Assembly (NCBI GenBank): GCA_020343595.1
Contig: CP070802.1
Location: 132,989 to 196,988, forward strand
Length of the DNA stretch: 64,000 bases
Source: a candidate division WOR-3 bacterium
GTDB taxonomy: Bacteria; Hydrothermota; Tepidihabitantia; SM23-42
Direction: 5' to 3'
Notes under the pieces: generated by a model
Database searches by the model: none
What the model saw: only the letters and a program-made list of their open reading frames with translations
Told to the model about the DNA's origin: nothing
In this document: piece after piece, positions 23,355-63,314 of the stretch
Layout: the number at the start of each line of letters is the position of its first letter
How positions within the stretch are numbered: position 1 is the first letter of the stretch
Position numbers and translations under genes: made by a program

Positions 23355-23361
23355 CTGCTCT

Positions 23362-23485
23362 GGGGTTAGATCTTGACTATTGACAAAAGCTGAGAGTAGA
23401 TAACCAGCAAAGTCTTCATATTCGGAAGCTCTGACGAACTTAACAAGTCCAGACCCAGTATTGTCAATAGTCAAGATCTAACCCC
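23362..23485. repeat. Palindromic element copy 1: perfect 25-bp terminal inverted repeats (GGGGTTAGATCTTGACTATTGACAA / reverse complement) flanking a 74-bp core
   Basis: IR-L at 23362-23386 and IR-R at 23461-23485 are exact reverse complements. A second copy with a different core sits at 61550-61677. Confidence 0.7.
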
Positions 23486-23542
23486 ACGGCTGATTTTCGA
23501 ATCGAAGTTGACTTCACGCCTATATTCGTTATACTTCACAGT

Positions 23543-24493
23543 ATGAAATTCGTCGATGAAGCAACCATTTTTGTTACCTCCGGAGCAGGTGGCAATGGTT
23601 GTATTTCATTCCGTCGTGAAAAATTCGTGCCCAGGGGCGGCCCCGACGGTGGTAACGGCGGCGACGGGGGGTCGGTATATCTGATGGGCAATAAAAAACT
23701 CGCAACGCTGTATGACCTCAAACTACGCCCGCATTACCGCGCCGGCCGTGGTCGGCACGGTAAAGGCAAGAATATGCACGGCAGGACAGGTGAAGATGTC
23801 TGTATTCAGGTTCCGCTTGGCGTTGCGGTTTTTGACAACGGCAGACTGATCGGCGAGGTAGTCGAAGCCGGCCAGAAGATCACTGTCGCCCAAGGGGGCA
23901 TTGGCGGCCGTGGTAACGCCCACTTTGTGACTTCGACTAATAGGGCACCGAGAGATGCCGAGGAAGGCCGCCCCGGCGACACGAAAAAGTTGAAGATCGT
24001 GCTGAAGATAATCTCTGATATCGGCATCGTTGGACTGCCAAATGCCGGTAAGTCGACGCTCCTGAAAGCCATGACCAATGCAAGACCAAAGATCGACAAC
24101 TACCCCTTCACAACGCTCAGTCCCAACCTGGGCGTCTTGCGTGATAACAAGAAGAATATCGTGCTCGCCGACATGCCGGGGATCATTGAAGGCGCACATC
24201 AAGGTAGAGGGATCGGGCTCCAATTTCTCAGACATATCGAGAGGACACACTTGCTGATACTGGTGGTTGACGCATCGGAAGCGGATCCGGTCGGTCAGTA
24301 TCGAGCGCTGATCAATGAATTCAGACAATACGATCCCAATCTGCTGAAGAAACCACGTATTCTGGTTTTCAATAAGATCGATCTTCTTGACCATAAGCCC
24401 ACTGTCCGGCTGAAGGAGAAGGTATTCTTCGTCTCTGCATTAGCGGGAACGGGCATCGATCGCCTGATTGACTATATTAGAAATGAGAATTAA
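23543..24493 (+). CDS. obg: GTPase Obg (ObgE/CgtA), short form lacking C-terminal extension
   Basis: MKFVDEATIFVTSGAGGNGCISFRREKFVPRGGPDGGNGGDGGSVY Obg fold, plus G1 GLPNAGKST and G3 DMPGIIEGA. Confidence 0.9.
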   Translation: MKFVDEATIFVTSGAGGNGCISFRREKFVPRGGPDGGNGGDGGSVYLMGNKKLATLYDLKLRPHYRAGRGRHGKGKNMHGRTGEDVCIQVPLGVAVFDNGRLIGEVVEAGQKITVAQGGIGGRGNAHFVTSTNRAPRDAEEGRPGDTKKLKIVLKIISDIGIVGLPNAGKSTLLKAMTNARPKIDNYPFTTLSPNLGVLRDNKKNIVLADMPGIIEGAHQGRGIGLQFLRHIERTHLLILVVDASEADPVGQYRALINEFRQYDPNLLKKPRILVFNKIDLLDHKPTVRLKEKVFFVSALAGTGIDRLIDYIRNEN

Positions 24494-35794: not shown

Positions 35795-38317
35795 GTGCTG
35801 CTCAAGAAATTAGGTAAATACGAGATCATAGAATGGCTCGGGGGAGGCAGATTCGGCGATGTCTTCCTTGCCCGTGATACGATCATCGATAAGAACTTCG
35901 CGCTGAAGATCTCCCGTATGCGGCGTGAAGAAATTGCCATGCTGAAAGACGAAGCAATTCTGCTTTCGTCCCTGAATCATCCGAACATTGTACGTTTCTA
36001 TAACATTGACTTCATCGACAATAAATTCGTGCTGGTGATGGAATACGTCGAAGGAAATAATCTGCGTGATATCATTACCGAAGGCGGTATCGATATCAGG
36101 ACAACGATAACGATACTTAACCAGATCATCGACGCCCTCTCCTATGCACACGGTGCCAAAGTGCTTCACAGGGATCTCAAACCCGAAAACATCCTGGCAG
36201 CGAAGAAAAAGAAGGACATATCAATAAAGATCACCGATTTTGGCCTCGCAAAGTTCATCCGCGCTGATTCGATATCGGCGTCGAGCGCCGGCACCCCGAT
36301 CTACATGGCACCGGAATCCTGGGCGGGAAGCTACAGCGAGAAATCTGACATATGGAGTCTGTGTGTAATCCTCTATGAGATGCTTACTGGAACCCCACCT
36401 TTTCTTGATGACAACCTGGACGGGCTCAAGAGAAAGATCGAGAAGTCCAAATTCACCTCACCGGCGATTCTGAGACACAACATTCCGGAACAGCTCGAGA
36501 AGATGATCATGTCAGGACTTACACCCGACCCGTTGACTCGGCCCGGCATAGCAGAGATCATGGATTACGTCAGCCAAATCGGCAAAGGCATCCGGGGTGA
36601 GAGAGTACGTGTAATGAGAGAGAAACCCGGCGCTATAAAACTCACGCCCGTGCAGAAAGAAATCATCGACTCCCTGTCCGGCGCGGTGCTCGTGCTGGGC
36701 CAGGCGGGCTGCGGAAAAACCACAACCCTTACCGAGGCCGTGAATACACTGATTGGCAAAGGAGTCCCGATCGCCCGCATACTGGTATGTACTTTCACCA
36801 ATAAGGCAGCAAATGACATACATGAGAGATTGACGAAGACGAATCGGTTCGACGTCCATGATCTGTGGCTGGGCACCCTGCACACGCTGGGATTTCGCAT
36901 CCTGCGCCGCGATGCCGAACGATTGGACATCGACCCCGATTTTACGATAGAAGATTCAAAGAGCATCGTCCGGGCAATCGGGATTGATGTTGGAAAGTTC
37001 CGTATCAACGTAGTGTTGAGATTCATTGAGATGCTGAAATCAAAGGGCGTAACGGCTAAGGATTTCGAACCCAGGAATAAGTGGGAAGAAACGTGTTCGG
37101 ATGTCTACAACAAATACGAAACCTACACGAGGGAGAGCAACATACTCGACTACGATGATTTGATCCTTCTTTCGATTAGATTGCTTGAAGACAACGTTGA
37201 TATCAGACAGGAGTACCAGAACATGTTCGACCACATCTTCGTCGATGAGCTTCAAGATATCAACCCTGCGCAGTACGATTTGATCAGGCTTATATATAAG
37301 GAAAGAATTTTCTTCACGGGCGATGGCGATCAGGCGATCTACGGTTGGCGTGGTGCGCAAAAGGAACTAATCCACCGCGTTCCGAAGGATTATCCGGCCG
37401 TCAAAATGTTCCAGCTCAATCAGAGCTTCCGTCTCGCTCAGGGTATCATCGATATCGCAAACAGCCTCATGCACCGGGAGCCGACCGTTATCCCAACAGG
37501 GCAAAAGAGTGATGTATTCGTATACGCCGCAAAATCCGAAGAAGACGAGGTTAGGTTCCTGACTAAGGAGATAGCCAAACTCAGGAAAGAAGATTTCAGC
37601 TACCGGGATATCGTTGTCCTGTGTCGCATGAACCAGCTCGCACGCGTCTATCAAGAAGCAATGGCAAAAGCGCGCATACCACATGCATTGATCAGCGGTG
37701 CATCCCTATATGAACGCAGCGAAGTAAAACCCATCATCGATTACCTTGAGACGCTGAAAGAATGTCAGCTGACGGAAAAACCACCTCCTAATTTCGCCGC
37801 TCGAATGAACAACCTACTGAGGATACCAAAGCGGAAAGCCCGACGTGCGCAAGGAGTCTATGAACACCATCTGGCTAATTTGATGATGCTCGAACCGAAG
37901 AAGATCATAGATGACATAATTGAATTGATCGGTTTGCACGGTGTCGAAACAGAAGAACTCCGGAACCTGGCAAGGGAGCTGACTTCCAATAATCTCGTTA
38001 ATTTCCTGAATCAGGTGCGACTCGCACGAGAACTTGACCTGGCCGGCTGGAGCAAAGACCTGGTTAAGGTTATGACCGTTCATAGTGCAAAGGGATTGGA
38101 ATTTCCGGTCGTATTTGTTGTCGATCTGGTAGAAAATATCTTCCCTCTTACCAGAAAGATATCTTCTCAGAAGGAAATCGATGAGGAACGTAGATTGTGT
38201 TATGTCGCATTGACGCGGGCTCAGAAGAAACTATACTTGTTATACCCGAAGTGGCGTCACGGCCGGTATCAGAAACCATCCCGGTTTCTGGTCGATATGT
38301 TCAAGACCGACCTCTAA
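35795..38317 (+). CDS. Fusion protein: N-terminal Hanks-type Ser/Thr protein kinase domain + C-terminal UvrD/PcrA/Rep-type SF1 DNA helicase (840 aa)
   Basis: Kinase motifs: GGGRFGDV (Gly loop), FALKI (VAIK), HRDLKPENI, DFG, MAPE. Helicase motifs: I GQAGCGKTTT, Ia TFTNKAANDI, II FVDELQD, III GDGDQAIYGWRGA, VI VHSAKGLEFPVVFVV and VALTRAQKKLYL. Confidence 0.8.
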   Translation: MLLKKLGKYEIIEWLGGGRFGDVFLARDTIIDKNFALKISRMRREEIAMLKDEAILLSSLNHPNIVRFYNIDFIDNKFVLVMEYVEGNNLRDIITEGGIDIRTTITILNQIIDALSYAHGAKVLHRDLKPENILAAKKKKDISIKITDFGLAKFIRADSISASSAGTPIYMAPESWAGSYSEKSDIWSLCVILYEMLTGTPPFLDDNLDGLKRKIEKSKFTSPAILRHNIPEQLEKMIMSGLTPDPLTRPGIAEIMDYVSQIGKGIRGERVRVMREKPGAIKLTPVQKEIIDSLSGAVLVLGQAGCGKTTTLTEAVNTLIGKGVPIARILVCTFTNKAANDIHERLTKTNRFDVHDLWLGTLHTLGFRILRRDAERLDIDPDFTIEDSKSIVRAIGIDVGKFRINVVLRFIEMLKSKGVTAKDFEPRNKWEETCSDVYNKYETYTRESNILDYDDLILLSIRLLEDNVDIRQEYQNMFDHIFVDELQDINPAQYDLIRLIYKERIFFTGDGDQAIYGWRGAQKELIHRVPKDYPAVKMFQLNQSFRLAQGIIDIANSLMHREPTVIPTGQKSDVFVYAAKSEEDEVRFLTKEIAKLRKEDFSYRDIVVLCRMNQLARVYQEAMAKARIPHALISGASLYERSEVKPIIDYLETLKECQLTEKPPPNFAARMNNLLRIPKRKARRAQGVYEHHLANLMMLEPKKIIDDIIELIGLHGVETEELRNLARELTSNNLVNFLNQVRLARELDLAGWSKDLVKVMTVHSAKGLEFPVVFVVDLVENIFPLTRKISSQKEIDEERRLCYVALTRAQKKLYLLYPKWRHGRYQKPSRFLVDMFKTDL

Positions 38318-54793: not shown

Positions 54794-54796
54794 TTC

Positions 54797-54950
54797 GTTC
54801 CCTGCAGTGCCCGTGATCGGTATGAAGTCTTGAGCCAACACCCATCTTAAGGGAGCCAAGTTCGATCAGGGATTTTACCCGAATTCGACTGGCGCCCACC
54901 TTAACCTTGGGTTCAAAGACTTTTTACCACACGGCACTTGCGGGGAGCTT
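54797..54950 (+). ncRNA. ssrS: Candidate 6S RNA (ssrS) between zapA and rny
   Basis: ~150-nt non-coding gap with long-range complementarity between its ends (gaagtctt/aagacttt; gtgcccgtg/cacggcac) closing a central unpaired region. The zapA-ssrS synteny is known from E. coli. Boundaries are approximate. Confidence 0.3.
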
Positions 54951-60208: not shown

Positions 60209-60282
<74 letters not shown>

Positions 60283-60703: not shown

Positions 60704-61489
60704 ATGAAAAAGCTGATAGGCATTACTCTTGCGGTGTCGGCACTTCTGATTCTCGTCGGCTGCGAAGGTGAAGGAGATGGACTAGTAGCTCCAGACGTGA
60801 CATATACTGTAACCGACGACGGCGCAACCCTCGCGCTGGAGTGGAATGCAGTAGATGGTGCTGACGGCTATTACATATATGCAGACGGCATCCTGATCGA
60901 CTCGACCACAGGATTATTCTACGATGCGACGGTACCCGCAGGGTTCTACGGTGTCGCGGCGTATGCTGGCGATGAAGAAAGTGCCACCGACGAGGTAGAT
61001 TGTACGCCGGTCGAAACAGCCAGCATTACTGTTTACGGCAATAGTGACCCAGCTCCGGATCATCCGAGTGGCATCGGCTTTACAGCAGCCGGAGCCTGTG
61101 TGACCCTGGCTCTCAGCGAACAGACTAATTGGCCAGACATCGATTTCTATTTTGACGATGCTAACTTCGCGCAGTTGACTATCGTCTCTCCAGGCGACCA
61201 TGTACCGCCCTATAACGATGAAGAGAACGCGACGGCCGCCAGCGGCACTGATTACGATGCCCTCGAAATCGCTGCCGGTATGGGCAATTATATCACGCAA
61301 AGAACATTGGCAGAAAATGCCGTTCTGTCCTTCTGGATCGACCCGGATGGAGACGGCTGGGGTGATGCAAACGACCACTTCGGCAAAATGAAGATCGTGA
61401 GCATAACCGGTGCTGCGGCACCTTACACTGCCGTGATCGATTGTGCTTATCAACCAATTGCCGGTCTGCGTTGGGTAGTCACGCAATAG
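60704..61489 (+). CDS. Surface lipoprotein, GCEGEGDG family, paralog 1
   Basis: Signal peptide and lipobox LILVGC, followed by EGEGDG. Acidic, Asp/Gly-rich, with DPDGDGWGD calcium-binding-like motifs. RBS AAGGAGGAG. Confidence 0.55.
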   Translation: MKKLIGITLAVSALLILVGCEGEGDGLVAPDVTYTVTDDGATLALEWNAVDGADGYYIYADGILIDSTTGLFYDATVPAGFYGVAAYAGDEESATDEVDCTPVETASITVYGNSDPAPDHPSGIGFTAAGACVTLALSEQTNWPDIDFYFDDANFAQLTIVSPGDHVPPYNDEENATAASGTDYDALEIAAGMGNYITQRTLAENAVLSFWIDPDGDGWGDANDHFGKMKIVSITGAAAPYTAVIDCAYQPIAGLRWVVTQ

Positions 61490-61510
61490 TACAAATCCTT
61501 TTGGAGAAAA

Positions 61511-61539
61511 GGGCGGGCAATGCCCGCCCTTTTTGTTTG
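61511..61539 (+). terminator. Rho-independent terminator (gggcgggc-aat-gcccgccc then TTTTT)
   Basis: 8-bp GC stem with a 3-nt loop and a T-run. Confidence 0.75.
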
Positions 61540-61549
61540 CACGTGTCAT

Positions 61550-61677
61550 GGGATCAGATCTTGACTATTGACAAATCCCACCACCAATCCAATATGCTAC
61601 TGCTGATTGAATCAACAAACAACCAAAGAAACAATCCGTGCATCACAAGCAATTGTCAATAGTCAAGATCTGACCCC
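61550..61677. repeat. Palindromic element copy 2: 25-bp inverted repeats (GGGATCAGATCTTGACTATTGACAA ... TTGTCAATAGTCAAGATCTGACCCC; 1 mismatch) flanking an unrelated 78-bp core
   Basis: IR-L at 61550-61574 and IR-R at 61653-61677. Its ends match copy 1 (23362-23485) at 24 of 25 positions. Confidence 0.7.
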
Positions 61678-61801
61678 AGTATCGATTTAGCCAACAACAT
61701 CGGCCAAATTTGCTGATAGAATAAACACGTCGCAGGTCACTCCGTTGACTTCAACCCCAATTACATATATAATTTACGCGAAGAAGAACAGAGGAGGCAT
61801 T

Positions 61802-62650
61802 GTGAAGCAATTTCTTAGATTATTAGCCGTTAACATAGTCACTGTTGCCATCGCCATATTGTCAGGATGCGAAGGTGAGGGTGATGGTAGCGCACCGCAG
61901 AATCTCGTGCTCGGTGGCACCAACTACGGCCAGGAAGTACTGCTTTCCTGGGAAGAATCGTCCGGAGGTCCGCCCGGCAATTACTTGATCTACTTCCGGC
62001 AGATTGACACGACGGATTTCGTCCTCGGTGCGACGATCAGCGGCGATACGCTGGAATATACCCATGATCCTCAAGGCATGACCGGAGACTACTATGTTGC
62101 CGCAAGATTCGGTGGTACTGAATACAGCTCAGATACCCTCACAACCATCCCCGTGCATACTGATATAGCGCAACTTTCGGAATTGAACGCAGCCGGAGAA
62201 TCAGGATACGGGTGGGCTCTCGCTGGAGATTTCAGCGGCAGTGTCTATGCCATGACCAATGCTTCAAATGCTCCGCTTGTTGATTTTTACGTCACTAACT
62301 TCGCGAACGATTCCGTGAGCGGACCATGGCCTGCTCCTTGGTATATTGCGAGCCCGGACACCGCGGTTGATGATCCAGGCGGCACGTCGGTTCCGCAGGC
62401 TGACTGGCGCGCGACCTGGTTTTCAGACCCGCTGCTCGACCCGCAGGCAATACTGCCTAATTTTGGGCCGACCACCTATTTTGAGTACATGAGTGGCATA
62501 CAGGCCGATACAATATATATTGGCGTATACCTGGAAGCAGAACAGCATTATGCCTTGGCTAAATTCTTTGGTGCGGACACAACGACCGGCACGATGCAGG
62601 TTGAAACCTGGTTCCAGAGCGTGCCGGATCTGCGTCTCTTAGCCCATTAA
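61802..62650 (+). CDS. Surface lipoprotein, GCEGEGDG family, paralog 2
   Basis: GTG start 61802, 5 nt after GAGGAGG. Lipobox ILSGC followed by EGEGDG. A TTGACT-N17-TATAAT promoter sits at 61745-61773. Confidence 0.5.
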   Translation: MKQFLRLLAVNIVTVAIAILSGCEGEGDGSAPQNLVLGGTNYGQEVLLSWEESSGGPPGNYLIYFRQIDTTDFVLGATISGDTLEYTHDPQGMTGDYYVAARFGGTEYSSDTLTTIPVHTDIAQLSELNAAGESGYGWALAGDFSGSVYAMTNASNAPLVDFYVTNFANDSVSGPWPAPWYIASPDTAVDDPGGTSVPQADWRATWFSDPLLDPQAILPNFGPTTYFEYMSGIQADTIYIGVYLEAEQHYALAKFFGADTTTGTMQVETWFQSVPDLRLLAH

Positions 62651-62702
62651 CCGGCAATGGGATCACCCATTATCCATGTATAATAGCATCTCAGGAGGTT
62701 TC

Positions 62703-63314
62703 ATGAAAAGAGTGATATTCTTGATGTTCACGGTATTAGTGTTTTCATATGCACAGTGTTTGTCGGCACCAATAAGCACGCGGGTGGGCGTAAAATTCGG
62801 ATTCAACCCGGGAACATATAACCTTGATGACGGACTCGATGAATTCAAGGGGACGGGTGTACACTTCGGTTTTGGAATGGGAACTGATATCCTGAACTTG
62901 ATAGCCATCGATATGGGGGCACAGTTCAGAACCACGAGTTACAGCCGTGAGGTTTTATCGGTCAAACACACTATTTCCTATAGTAATCTCTATTTTCCCT
63001 TCTTTCTTTCGCTAAAAGCAGGTATGCTACCATTGATTTCTCCTTATATTGGCGCCGGACTTGGGCTCAACGTGCAGTTCAACGGGACGAGCAGCCTCGA
63101 GTCTAACGGTCTCGTCGTAGAGACGCCGATCGAAGGCTCTAACACTAATTTCTTCTTGATACTCGGAATCGGTGCCGAAGTAAAACTACTGAAATTCAGA
63201 ATAATGCCTGAATTCACGGCTAATATCAATGCCCAGGCCGATGATGAAGCAACCGAAGCGACCGAAGAGAACGTTGACTATCATATTTCGGTAGGTTTTT
63301 ATTACGCACCTTAA
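62703..63314 (+). CDS. Outer membrane beta-barrel protein (OmpW/OmpA-like small porin family)
   Basis: Signal peptide, alternating beta-strands, and a C-terminal ...VGFYYAP with aromatic terminus. Start ATG 62703 after CAGGAGG. Confidence 0.55.
   Translation: MKRVIFLMFTVLVFSYAQCLSAPISTRVGVKFGFNPGTYNLDDGLDEFKGTGVHFGFGMGTDILNLIAIDMGAQFRTTSYSREVLSVKHTISYSNLYFPFFLSLKAGMLPLISPYIGAGLGLNVQFNGTSSLESNGLVVETPIEGSNTNFFLILGIGAEVKLLKFRIMPEFTANINAQADDEATEATEENVDYHISVGFYYAP

What the first reader, a model, noticed from the sequence alone, without database searches (positions are those of the whole stretch)
23362..23485. Palindromic element: 25-bp perfect inverted repeats around a 74-bp core between coaD and obg
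GGGGTTAGATCTTGACTATTGACAA at 23362-23386 and its exact reverse complement at 23461-23485 bracket 74 bp.

- A second copy at 61550-61677 shares the ends (24/25 identical) but has a completely unrelated core of nearly the same length.
- Conserved termini with a variable core of fixed length is unusual for a MITE, which normally keeps its core.
- The repeat itself contains a tandem TTGACT/TTGACA (-35-like) pair and a BglII palindrome.
- Both ends therefore point -35-like hexamers inward, which could give convergent transcription over the core.
- Candidate explanations are a MITE-like mobile unit, a paired operator site, or a small sense/antisense RNA locus.
Basis: seen in the sequence. Interest (0 to 1): 0.6.

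Follow-up and report, generated by a model that had tools for sequence, protein, structure and literature searches.

The report
Miniature mobile element of a tyrosine transposase
The palindromic element is a small non-coding passenger of a little-studied tyrosine-transposase system (TIRYT/RAYT type) in WOR-3 bacteria: a known kind of selfish repeat, notable mainly because its 26-bp ends stay almost unchanged across very distant genomes.

Summary
Two inverted-repeat doublets lie at 23361-23486 (26-nt arms, 100% complementary, 74-bp core) and 61549-61678 (96%, 78-bp core). Chance expectation is 0.

The arms are the terminal inverted repeats that flank a 332-aa Y1 (HUH) tyrosine transposase in related WOR-3 genomes. 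That transposase carries a C-terminal domain like DnaA domain IV. This matches the published TIRtron/TIRYT class (TIR consensus GGGGWSAS; TnpA_REP subclass 2.1), a cousin of REPIN/RAYT systems.

- **Inheritance:** the transposase gene sits in the same gene neighbourhood in four genomes, so it is vertically inherited.
- **Turnover:** the coaD-obg copy is absent from four relatives. One core lineage occurs in five genomes, at two adjacent intergenic sites and in two orientations.
- **Conservation:** arms stay 50-51/52 identical where four-fold codon sites are saturated.

Cores from different lineages are unrelated, mostly unstructured, have no complete promoter and match no Rfam family, tRNA or phage. 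So the sRNA and convergent-transcription readings are not supported. Verdict: a new member of a known kind. The near-constant core length (74-80 bp) is unexplained.

The parts
23361..23386 (+). Left terminal inverted repeat of doublet 1 (TGGGGTTAGATCTTGACTATTGACAA). It consists of a GGGGW.A. head, an AGATCT palindrome and two tandem heptamers TTGACTA/TTGACAA.
   Evidence: the same arm flanks TIRYT genes in L012 and L034
23387..23460 (.). Core of doublet 1: 74 bp, unique, with no significant fold of its own (z = 0.09), no complete promoter, and no Rfam or tRNA match.
23461..23486 (-). Right terminal inverted repeat of doublet 1, the exact complement of the left arm. It carries the same non-consensus T/A (GGGGTTAG / CTAACCCC) as the left arm.
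61549..61574 (+). Left terminal inverted repeat of doublet 2 (TGGGATCAGATCTTGACTATTGACAA; G->A at the 4th G).
61575..61652 (.). Core of doublet 2: 78 bp. It is homologous to the cores of doublets in four other WOR-3 genomes (L042, L021, L041 inverted, L014).
61653..61678 (-). Right terminal inverted repeat of doublet 2 (family consensus sequence).
62658..62665 (+). Remnant TGGGATCA of a deleted third doublet in the next intergenic region (between genes B and C). Relatives L021, L014 and L041 carry a full doublet at exactly this place. The remnant shares the GGGA variant with doublet 2's left arm.
23508..23535 (+). Context: the obg promoter-like site (TTGACT-16-TATACT). It lies outside the element, 22 bp downstream of it.
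61745..61773 (+). Context: the promoter-like site of gene B (TTGACT-17-TATAAT). It lies outside the element. An intrinsic terminator of gene A at 61511-61525 precedes the element.

Best explanation
Each doublet is a non-autonomous miniature element of a TIRtron system. It consists of two copies, in inverted orientation, of the 26-bp terminal repeat that flanks a single-copy Y1 (HUH) tyrosine transposase gene (TIRYT, TnpA_REP subclass 2.1) in this bacterial lineage, around a short non-coding core. Proposed mechanism (inferred): on single-stranded DNA the two arms pair into a 25-26 bp stem, and the transposase acts on it in trans. The Y1 domain would cut near the GGGGT head. The DnaA-domain-IV-like HTH would recognise the tandem TTSACWA heptamers. 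The whole unit, core included, is then copied or moved, occasionally flipped, and lost by imprecise deletion. A tentative detail is that the break lies right after TGGGGT, and that a pre-existing TGGGGT in the target supplies the outer 6 nt of one arm, as TTAC does for IS608. The inward TTGACA in the arm is the -35 box of the transposase's own promoter in the master copy; in the doublets it has no function as a promoter. The arms are kept nearly invariant by their interaction with the transposase (selection or concerted evolution), while core sequence is largely free to change.
For: **Shown**
- The same arms flank a 332-aa ORF in CP070705.1 (L012, 1005-bp core). That ORF matches Pfam Y1_Tnp at 1e-14, and its best NCBIfam match is REP_Tyr_transpos, below the family cutoff.
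- The HUH histidines and the catalytic Tyr are invariant in 19 homologues. The C-terminus matches DnaA domain IV (3pvp, E = 3e-4).
- Orthologues at 76, 63 and 59% identity lie in the same msrAB / Por_Secre_tail neighbourhood. Each is flanked by the arms, and arm variants change on both sides together (GGGGTCAGGTC, GGGGTCAAATC). More distant homologues (48-49% identity; the one in L038 lies in a different gene neighbourhood) have correspondingly different arms.
- The arm starts GGGGTCAG, which fits the published TIRYT TIR consensus GGGGWSAS (PMC3733652; PMC6006769).
- Turnover: the coaD-obg copy is absent in relatives with 93, 86, 85 and 69% Obg identity.
- One core lineage is found between genes A and B (window, L042), between B and C (L021, L014), inverted between B and C (L041), as a remnant (window 62658-62665), or not at all (L043).
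- Arms are 50-51/52 identical where four-fold sites of the adjacent gene are only 37-50% identical.
- The promoter is confirmed in the master copies, and the transposase stop codon lies inside the arm.

**Suggestive for the TGGGGT break**
- The empty site in L029 retains ACCCCA exactly at the junction.
- The 15-bp tandem duplication in L042 ends at TGGGGT.
- The window remnant is TGGGAT(CA).
Against: - No transposase gene lies in the 64-kb window, and the rest of the window's own genome could not be scanned, so trans-mobilisation in this genome is inferred from relatives.
- No transposition has been observed directly. Presence/absence could partly reflect deletion.
- Copy number is low (2 doublets per 64 kb here; 3 doublets plus the TIRtron with exact arms in 2.3 Mb of CP070705.1). 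This is unlike typical REPIN populations.
- Cores of different lineages are unrelated yet all 74-80 bp, which simple copy-and-diverge does not explain.
- Each arm alone is not a hairpin, unlike the substrates of characterised Y1 transposases.
- The TGGGGT break rests on three junctions, one of them ambiguous because of TCA microhomology.
Confidence: 0.8

Rival explanations
1. Domesticated regulatory or architectural sites. The arms would be operator-like binding sites for the DnaA-domain-IV HTH of the TIRYT (or a host factor), kept by the host as pairs about 100 bp apart to loop DNA or tune neighbouring promoters.
For: Arms stay 50-51/52 identical across genomes whose four-fold sites are saturated. 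Every doublet sits between a stop codon and the next promoter. The spacing is constrained to 74-80 bp. The TIRYT is vertically inherited at one locus, like a host gene. The arm overlaps the TIRYT's own -35, so binding there would autoregulate it.
Against: Copies are not tied to particular genes. The obg-upstream copy is missing in four relatives. The A/B/C-locus copy shifts site and orientation or is absent. A zero-core form also exists (L010/L023/L024). No binding data are available.
Confidence: 0.1
2. RNA-level element. Transcribed as the 3' end of the upstream gene, the 25-bp stem would act as a terminator or as a 3'-exonuclease block or RNase III site, as described for REP and MITE sequences.
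For: All copies start 7-60 bp after a stop codon. The stem is very stable (-22 to -37 kcal/mol, z = -6 to -9). No other terminator is detected between coaD and obg. REPs downstream of genes are thought to act this way (PMC3733652).
Against: No T-run follows the stem. Doublet 2 sits after a canonical intrinsic terminator, so it would rarely be transcribed. This reading would not explain sequence-level, rather than pairing-level, conservation of the arms. It is most likely a side effect rather than the origin.
Confidence: 0.05
3. A small sense/antisense RNA locus driven by the inward-facing -35 hexamers.
For: Each arm points TTGACT/TTGACA hexamers inward. The same hexamer is a real -35 in the transposase-carrying units.
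Against: The scan finds no -10 partner in either window core. Cores are unrelated between lineages and unstructured (z about 0 in 4 of 6). There is no Rfam or tRNA match.
Confidence: 0.03
4. An invertible switch (inverton) flipped by a site-specific recombinase acting on the inverted repeats.
For: The same core is found in opposite orientation at the same site in L041 versus L021/L014.
Against: No promoter lies in the core and no serine or tyrosine invertase gene is nearby. The arms belong to a Y1 HUH transposase. The inversion is seen between distant genomes, not within a population. A 74-80 bp segment is short for recombinase synapsis (the last point rests on my own knowledge).
Confidence: 0.02

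Closest known systems
TIRtrons / TIRYT-associated TIR repeat families (Di Nocera, De Gregorio & Rocco 2013, PMC3733652; TnpA_REP subclass 2.1 of Quentin et al. 2018, PMC6006769)
   Same: A Y1 HUH transposase of about 330 aa with a C-terminal Bac_DnaA_C/HTH domain is flanked by long terminal inverted repeats that begin GGGGWSAS. The 3' repeat overlaps the gene. Extra copies of the TIR are scattered in the genome as singles, dimers or groups, at moderate to low copy number.
   Different: This is a new phylum (WOR-3) and a new TIR sequence. Shown here, and not found in the passages of those two papers that I read: conserved synteny of the transposase; arms that stay invariant across saturated divergence; the arm's TTGACA acting as the -35 of the transposase promoter; heptamer repeats that differ between two transposases only 48% identical; and dimers with unrelated cores of 74-80 bp.
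REPIN / RAYT systems (Bertels & Rainey 2011, PMC3116915, PMC3337134)
   Same: The elements are doublets of a short repeat in inverted orientation that form a hairpin. The spacer is less conserved than the repeats, and spacings are discrete. There is a single-copy, vertically inherited Y1 transposase flanked by the same repeat, and no target-site duplication.
   Different: The arms are not themselves GTAG-tagged palindromes. Spacers here are mostly not self-complementary (z about 0 in 4 of 6), whereas REPIN spacers always form a hairpin. There are only a few copies instead of tens to hundreds. The transposase has an extra HTH domain.
IS200/IS605 family (IS608, ISDra2)
   Same: The catalytic domain is Y1 HUH. 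There is no target-site duplication. Insertion may occur next to a short specific motif that is also the cleavage site (TTAC for IS608; TGGGGT is proposed here).
   Different: IS200/IS605 elements have different subterminal hairpins at each end and no terminal inverted repeats. The transposase here is twice as long and, as far as seen, single-copy at a fixed locus.
Classical bacterial MITEs (RUP, Correia/NEMIS, ERIC, Nezha)
   Same: They are about 125 bp, non-coding, carry terminal inverted repeats, lie in intergenic regions and fold into a stable stem.
   Different: MITEs keep a conserved core derived from a DDE-type IS and make target-site duplications. Here the cores are unrelated, there is no duplication, and the partner enzyme is a tyrosine HUH transposase.

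Membership tests
TIRtron / TIRYT TIR family | The repeat is the terminal inverted repeat flanking a RAYT-like Y1 transposase gene | tested here: met
   Arms identical to the family consensus flank the gene in L012 and L034. Variant arms flank the orthologues or homologues in L035, L036, L038 and L019. The caveat is that this was shown in related genomes; no such gene lies in the 64-kb window.
TIRtron / TIRYT TIR family | The TIR carries the GGGGWSAS head motif | tested here: met
   The consensus arm and doublet 2's right arm start GGGGTCAG. Doublet 1 has GGGGTTAG (one deviation, mirrored in both arms) and doublet 2's left arm has GGGATCAG (motif from PMC3733652).
TIRtron / TIRYT TIR family | The transposase has the HUH motif, a catalytic Tyr and a C-terminal HTH (Bac_DnaA_C / HTH_23) | tested here: met
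   Y1_Tnp at 1e-14. H60, H62 and Y119 are invariant in 19 sequences. The profile matches DnaA domain IV at E = 3e-4. Weak Bac_DnaA_C and HTH_23 hits are also present.
TIRtron / TIRYT TIR family | Extra TIR copies are dispersed as singles, dimers or groups | tested here: met
   There are two dimers plus one remnant in the window. CP070705.1 has three dimers. L019 has a solo arm and L035 has tandem arms.
REPIN / RAYT | The REP unit is itself a short imperfect palindrome tagged by GTAG | tested here: not met
   There is no GTAG. By inspection of the sequence, a single arm has at most a 4-5 bp stem. Only the two arms together form the stem.
REPIN / RAYT | The spacer between the two repeats is self-complementary, so the whole doublet is one long hairpin | tested here: not met
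   Core-only folds give z = 0.09, -0.53, 0.60, 0.05 and -0.97. Only the L002 core is structured (z = -3.1).
REPIN / RAYT | A single-copy, vertically inherited transposase is flanked by the repeat | tested here: met
   The same msrAB / Por_Secre_tail neighbourhood is seen in four genomes at 59-100% identity. Single-copy status within a genome was not tested.
REPIN / RAYT | A population of tens to hundreds of closely similar doublets per genome | tested here: inconclusive
   Only four loci with an exact 18-mer were found in the 2.3-Mb CP070705.1, and cores of different lineages are unrelated. Diverged copies could not be searched genome-wide.
Classical MITE (DDE-derived) | A target-site duplication flanks the TIRs | tested here: not met
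   The flanks of 15 elements share only T before GGGG (15/15) and A (11/15) or G (4/15) after CCCC. No direct repeat is present.
Classical MITE (DDE-derived) | The core derives from the parent element by internal deletion | tested here: not met
   Cores were searched with blastn-short against all loci held at that point, including the transposase-carrying units of L012 and L019 (the other such units were fetched, so L034-L039 were also in the set). Only self matches and the orthologous pair were found.
IS200/IS605 | Insertion occurs 3' of a short specific motif that is also the cleavage site, without duplication | tested here: inconclusive
   Three junctions are compatible with a break after TGGGGT. 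No biochemical data are available.
Known RNA families / tRNA | A match to a curated covariance model or a tRNA fold | tested here: not met
   Rfam at gathering threshold finds only 6S RNA and one tRNA elsewhere in the window. ARAGORN finds only tRNA-Ile at 60209-60282.

The most novel reading that the evidence does not exclude
The doublets are not merely selfish passengers. They would be host-maintained sites of a domesticated TIRYT whose DnaA-domain-IV-like HTH binds the tandem heptamers. Sequence-level purifying selection on the arms and a constrained spacing of about 100 bp centre to centre would then reflect a function such as DNA looping, promoter insulation, or titration and autoregulation of the transposase. 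A related possibility is that TIRYTs use a TGGGGT^ target/cleavage rule, which would give this uncharacterised branch of HUH enzymes its first mechanistic model.
Probability: 0.15. Interest if true: 0.6.

Novelty: new member of a known kind. Interest (0 to 1): 0.3.

Why it matters
TIRYT-type tyrosine transposases are abundant: more than 7,400 homologues were scored at E <= 1e-10 in one capped search. Yet in the searchable library only two works (three records) use the term, and neither passage I read offers a mechanism. This WOR-3 family is a clean comparative case:
- a syntenic, vertically inherited transposase;
- arms that stay invariant over saturating divergence;
- a promoter and a stop codon embedded in the arms;
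- a traceable element lineage that hopped, flipped and was deleted within one three-gene locus.

It supplies testable predictions, namely a cleavage site at TGGGGT^ and HTH binding to the TTSACWA heptamers. For genome annotation, the result means these palindromes should be labelled as transposase-associated repeats, not as operators or sRNA genes.

Tried and rejected
- **tRNA-sized cores as tRNA-like genes:** ARAGORN finds none.
- **Known RNA family:** none at gathering threshold.
- **Cores as structured RNA or hairpin spacers:** z is about 0 for 4 of 6.
- **Cores as captured foreign DNA (spacer-like):** five cores gave no blastn hit against 50,697 phage records. The arm 18-mer is absent from viral contigs. 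The cores also have no second copy in about 0.4 Mb of related DNA.
- **Cores as deletion derivatives of the transposase unit:** no similarity.
- **Convergent promoters:** neither window copy has a complete promoter.
- **Transposase, or its syntenic neighbours msrAB and Por_Secre_tail, inside the window:** none.
- **Exact look-up of the window's Obg protein:** not on record, so relatives were reached through homologues instead.
- **Single-sequence search of solved structures with the transposase:** no hit. Only the profile found DnaA domain IV.
- **The 18-mer hits outside WOR-3** (Nostocales, Bacilli, Kordia and others): these share only the inner 18-19 bases, not the GGGGTCA head, and were treated as chance or unrelated.

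Full report
**1. Observation**

The sequence is as described. GGGGTTAGATCTTGACTATTGACAA lies at 23362-23386 and its exact reverse complement at 23461-23485. A second pair lies at 61550-61574 (2 mismatches) and 61653-61677 (1 mismatch). None is expected by chance in 100 shuffles.

The repeat finder extends the arms to 26 nt (TGGGG.../...CCCCA). They are 100% and 96% complementary, with 74 and 78 nt between them, and no other comparable inverted repeat of this family occurs in the window. The two cores are unrelated. The flanking genes are a coaD-like gene and obg.

**2. What the arms belong to**

An exact-match scan of one genome per species with the inner 18-mer found four loci in one genome, candidate division WOR-3 bacterium CP070705.1. 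Three are doublets with the same arms and different cores of 77, 79 and 78 bp (L002, L003, L014).

In the fourth (L012) the same arms lie 1005 bp apart and enclose a 332-aa ORF. The properties of that protein are:
- It matches Pfam Y1_Tnp (IS200-like) at 1e-14, and its best NCBIfam match is REP-associated tyrosine transposase, below that family's cutoff.
- In an alignment of 19 homologues the HUH histidines (H60, H62) and the Tyr of SRYxHxN (Y119) are invariant.
- A profile of the alignment matches DnaA domain IV at the C-terminus (3pvp, E = 3e-4).
- The family is large: 7,436 proteins at E <= 1e-10 in a capped search, some of them named RayT by their sources.

The literature has a name for this arrangement. 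RAYT-like genes flanked by long terminal inverted repeats rather than REP hairpins are 'TIRtrons', and they encode 'TIRYTs'. Their TIRs share GGGGWSAS and can form moderately abundant families of single, dimeric or grouped copies (PMC3733652). Quentin et al. place most TIRYTs in TnpA_REP subclass 2.1, defined by a Bac_DnaA_C/HTH C-terminal domain (PMC6006769). The arms here begin GGGGTCAG. The window's two elements are therefore TIR dimers of such a family.

**3. The transposase is inherited vertically, and its arms change with it**

Orthologues at 76, 63 and 59% identity (L034, L035, L036/L037) lie in the same neighbourhood as in CP070705.1, between an msrAB-type gene and a Por_Secre_tail/FlgD_ig gene. 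All are flanked by the arms:
- L034 has exactly the consensus arms.
- L035 has an A->G change, and L036 a G->A change, present in both arms.
- Homologues at 48-49% identity (L019, L038) have correspondingly different arms: GGGGTCAAATCTTCACAATTCACAA and GGGGTTAAATCTCGAAACTTGACAA.

Comparing L012 with L019, the inner arm is two tandem heptamers (TTGACTA TTGACAA versus TTCACAA TTCACAA) that change together. I take this as a hint that they are the site read by the HTH domain. That step is inference.

In every unit the TGA stop codon is the TGA of ...ATCTGACCCC, so the last residues (LSIVKI) are encoded by the arm. The inner TTGACA of the upstream arm is the -35 of a promoter-like site (16-nt spacer, then TAGACT or TATAAT, with the ATG 6 nt later) in L012, L034 and L038. 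In the window's doublets they have no -10 partner.

**4. Evidence for turnover**

*coaD-obg site.* The window's intergenic region is 188 bp.
- The closest relative (L029, Obg 93% identical) has 67 bp with no element, and its flanks are alignable on both sides.
- Relatives at 86, 85 and 69% Obg identity also lack the element.
- At the junction L029 reads GCTGTT-ACCCCA-TAG, so it already has, or retains, the outermost six bases of one arm.

*The three-gene locus A-B-C (window 60704-63314).* One recognisable core lineage is present in five genomes:

| Genome | Position and orientation of the element |
|---|---|
| Window (doublet 2) | between A and B |
| L042 | between A and B |
| L021 | between B and C |
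| L014 | between B and C |
| L041 | between B and C, with the core inverted |
| L043 | none at either site |

. Alignment scores for these cores (46, 13 and 9) exceed every one of 600 shuffles (maximum 8). All other core pairs score -1 or less.

The window's own B-C spacer keeps an 8-bp remnant, TGGGATCA (62658-62665), at exactly the place where L021 has the element. The deletion also removed the neighbouring -35 box. The remnant shares the GGGA variant with doublet 2's left arm.

So the unit, core included, has been duplicated or moved at least once, inverted once and deleted more than once. No target-site duplication is seen. The base before GGGG is T in 15 of 15 elements, and the base after CCCC is A in 11 and G in 4.

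**5. Conservation**

For the element lineage at the A-B-C locus I compared the arms and the core with four-fold degenerate sites of the adjacent gene B.

| Comparison | Arms | Core | Four-fold sites of gene B |
|---|---|---|---|
| Window vs L014 | 51/52 identical | 47% | 39% (saturated) |
| Window vs L042 | 50/52 identical | 73% | 50% |

Only L041's arms are decaying (41-43/52, with a 1-nt deletion). So the arms are held at the sequence level, not merely as a complementary pair, over a span in which neutral sites randomise. Either purifying selection through the transposase interaction or concerted evolution among copies would do this, and I cannot tell them apart.

**6. The cores**

- Cores of different lineages are unrelated.
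- They are mostly unstructured on their own (z = 0.09, -0.53, 0.60, 0.05, -0.97; only L002 reaches -3.1).
- They contain no tRNA or Rfam family.
- They do not resemble the transposase-carrying unit.
- Whole doublets fold into the expected 25-bp stem with a large loop (-22 to -37 kcal/mol, z = -6 to -9).

Core lengths are 74, 77, 78, 78, 78, 79, 79 and 80 bp. By contrast, another organism carries a zero-core, 43-nt perfect palindrome of the same arms (L010/L023/L024). A different TIR family in L038 forms a 175-bp doublet.

REPIN doublets show a comparable pattern of discrete spacings with non-conserved spacers, but their spacers always form a hairpin (PMC3337134). That is not so here. Why length is kept while sequence is not remains unexplained. 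I regard a constraint from the geometry of transposase binding as the most likely reason (inference).

**7. Mechanism proposed**

Shown: identity of the arms with the TIRYT TIRs; intact catalytic motifs; a DnaA-IV-like HTH; the promoter and stop codon inside the arms; vertical inheritance; gain, loss and inversion of whole units.

Inferred:
- Trans-mobilisation through a single-stranded hairpin intermediate, as for other Y1 HUH enzymes.
- HTH recognition of the heptamers.
- Autoregulation of the transposase at its own -35.

Tentative: a break after TGGGGT, with a target TGGGGT supplying one arm's outer six bases. Three junctions fit this. The L029 empty site retains ACCCCA. The L042 tandem duplication GCCGTGTCATGGGGT x2 ends at that point. 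The window remnant is TGGGAT(CA), although TCA microhomology makes it ambiguous.

**8. Rivals**

A host regulatory or architectural role for the pairs cannot be excluded, and it is the most interesting residual reading. However, the copies are not tied to given genes across relatives. A terminator or mRNA-stabiliser effect may exist as a by-product, but there is no T-run and doublet 2 already follows a canonical terminator. The sRNA/antisense and inverton readings lack their defining features.

**9. Verdict**

This is a real feature, correctly observed. It is best filed as a new (WOR-3) member of the known TIRtron/TIRYT class, functionally akin to REPIN/RAYT systems. It is of moderate-to-low surprise value to a specialist. 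It is useful as a comparative entry point to an uncharacterised branch of HUH transposases, and it leaves one unexplained property: unrelated cores of nearly constant length.

**Limits**

- The window's own genome (NCBI 2.37-Mb chromosome) could not be scanned beyond the window.
- The genome and metagenome scans were exact-match only, so diverged copies are under-counted and the conserved-arm copies are an ascertained sample.
- The orthologous comparisons in section 5 are less affected by this, because those loci were reached through the neighbouring gene, or had one arm free to vary.

Noticed in passing
window 54796-54950 (+) and 60209-60282 (+): 6S/SsrS RNA (Rfam 76.3 bits) and tRNA-Ile(GAT). 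These are the only curated RNA matches in the window.
   Followed up: no
window 23508-23545; also L012 6242-6269, L034 9967-10003: Promoter-like sites end only 6-7 nt before the ATG of obg and of the TIRYT genes, with no Shine-Dalgarno sequence. This suggests leaderless mRNAs in these WOR-3 bacteria. Gene B (61802), by contrast, has a GGAGG leader.
   Followed up: no
window 60704-63314: Three adjacent genes (A 261 aa, B 282 aa, C about 203 aa) encode lipoprotein-like or outer-membrane-like proteins. A and B share an N-terminal ...LVGCEGEGDG... lipobox region. The locus is conserved across WOR-3 genomes and is a recurrent home of one doublet lineage.
   Followed up: partly
L042 2820-2850: A 15-bp tandem duplication, GCCGTGTCATGGGGT x2, spans the flank plus the first 6 nt of the left arm. 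The unit ends exactly after TGGGGT.
   Followed up: partly
L035 9873-9939: Two arms lie in direct orientation 17 bp apart upstream of the TIRYT gene, each followed by a similar ATTACG...GCAA stretch. A further partial arm (ATTGACAA) supplies the -35 closest to the gene.
   Followed up: no
L038 19164-19338 (same in L039 16501-16675): A 175-bp doublet of a different TIR family (GGGGTCAGGTCTTTAGTTTTAA...) occurs in a genome whose nearby TIRYT has other arms. This implies more than one TIR family per genome.
   Followed up: no
L010 629-671, L023 9088-9130, L024 5569-5611: A zero-core form: the same arms are fused into a 43-nt perfect palindrome (stem of 20 bp, -21.3 kcal/mol), 9 bp after a stop codon. 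It appears in one genome assembly (L010, an uncultured bacterium) and on two metagenome contigs carrying the same locus.
   Followed up: partly
L001, L004, L008, L009: The inner 18-mer GATCTTGACTATTGACAA also occurs once each in four Nostocales genomes, in two of them (L001, L004) preceded by the same CCTGCGC, but without the GGGGTCA head. It is probably an unrelated conserved sequence.
   Followed up: partly
window 37078-37119 / 38109-38150: A 42-nt imperfect inverted repeat (71% complementary) with arms 989 nt apart. It was not examined.
   Followed up: no
L019 419-443: A solo consensus arm with no partner within about 1.2 kb lies on the same contig as a 48%-identical TIRYT that has its own variant arms. 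So two arm types co-occur in one organism.
   Followed up: no
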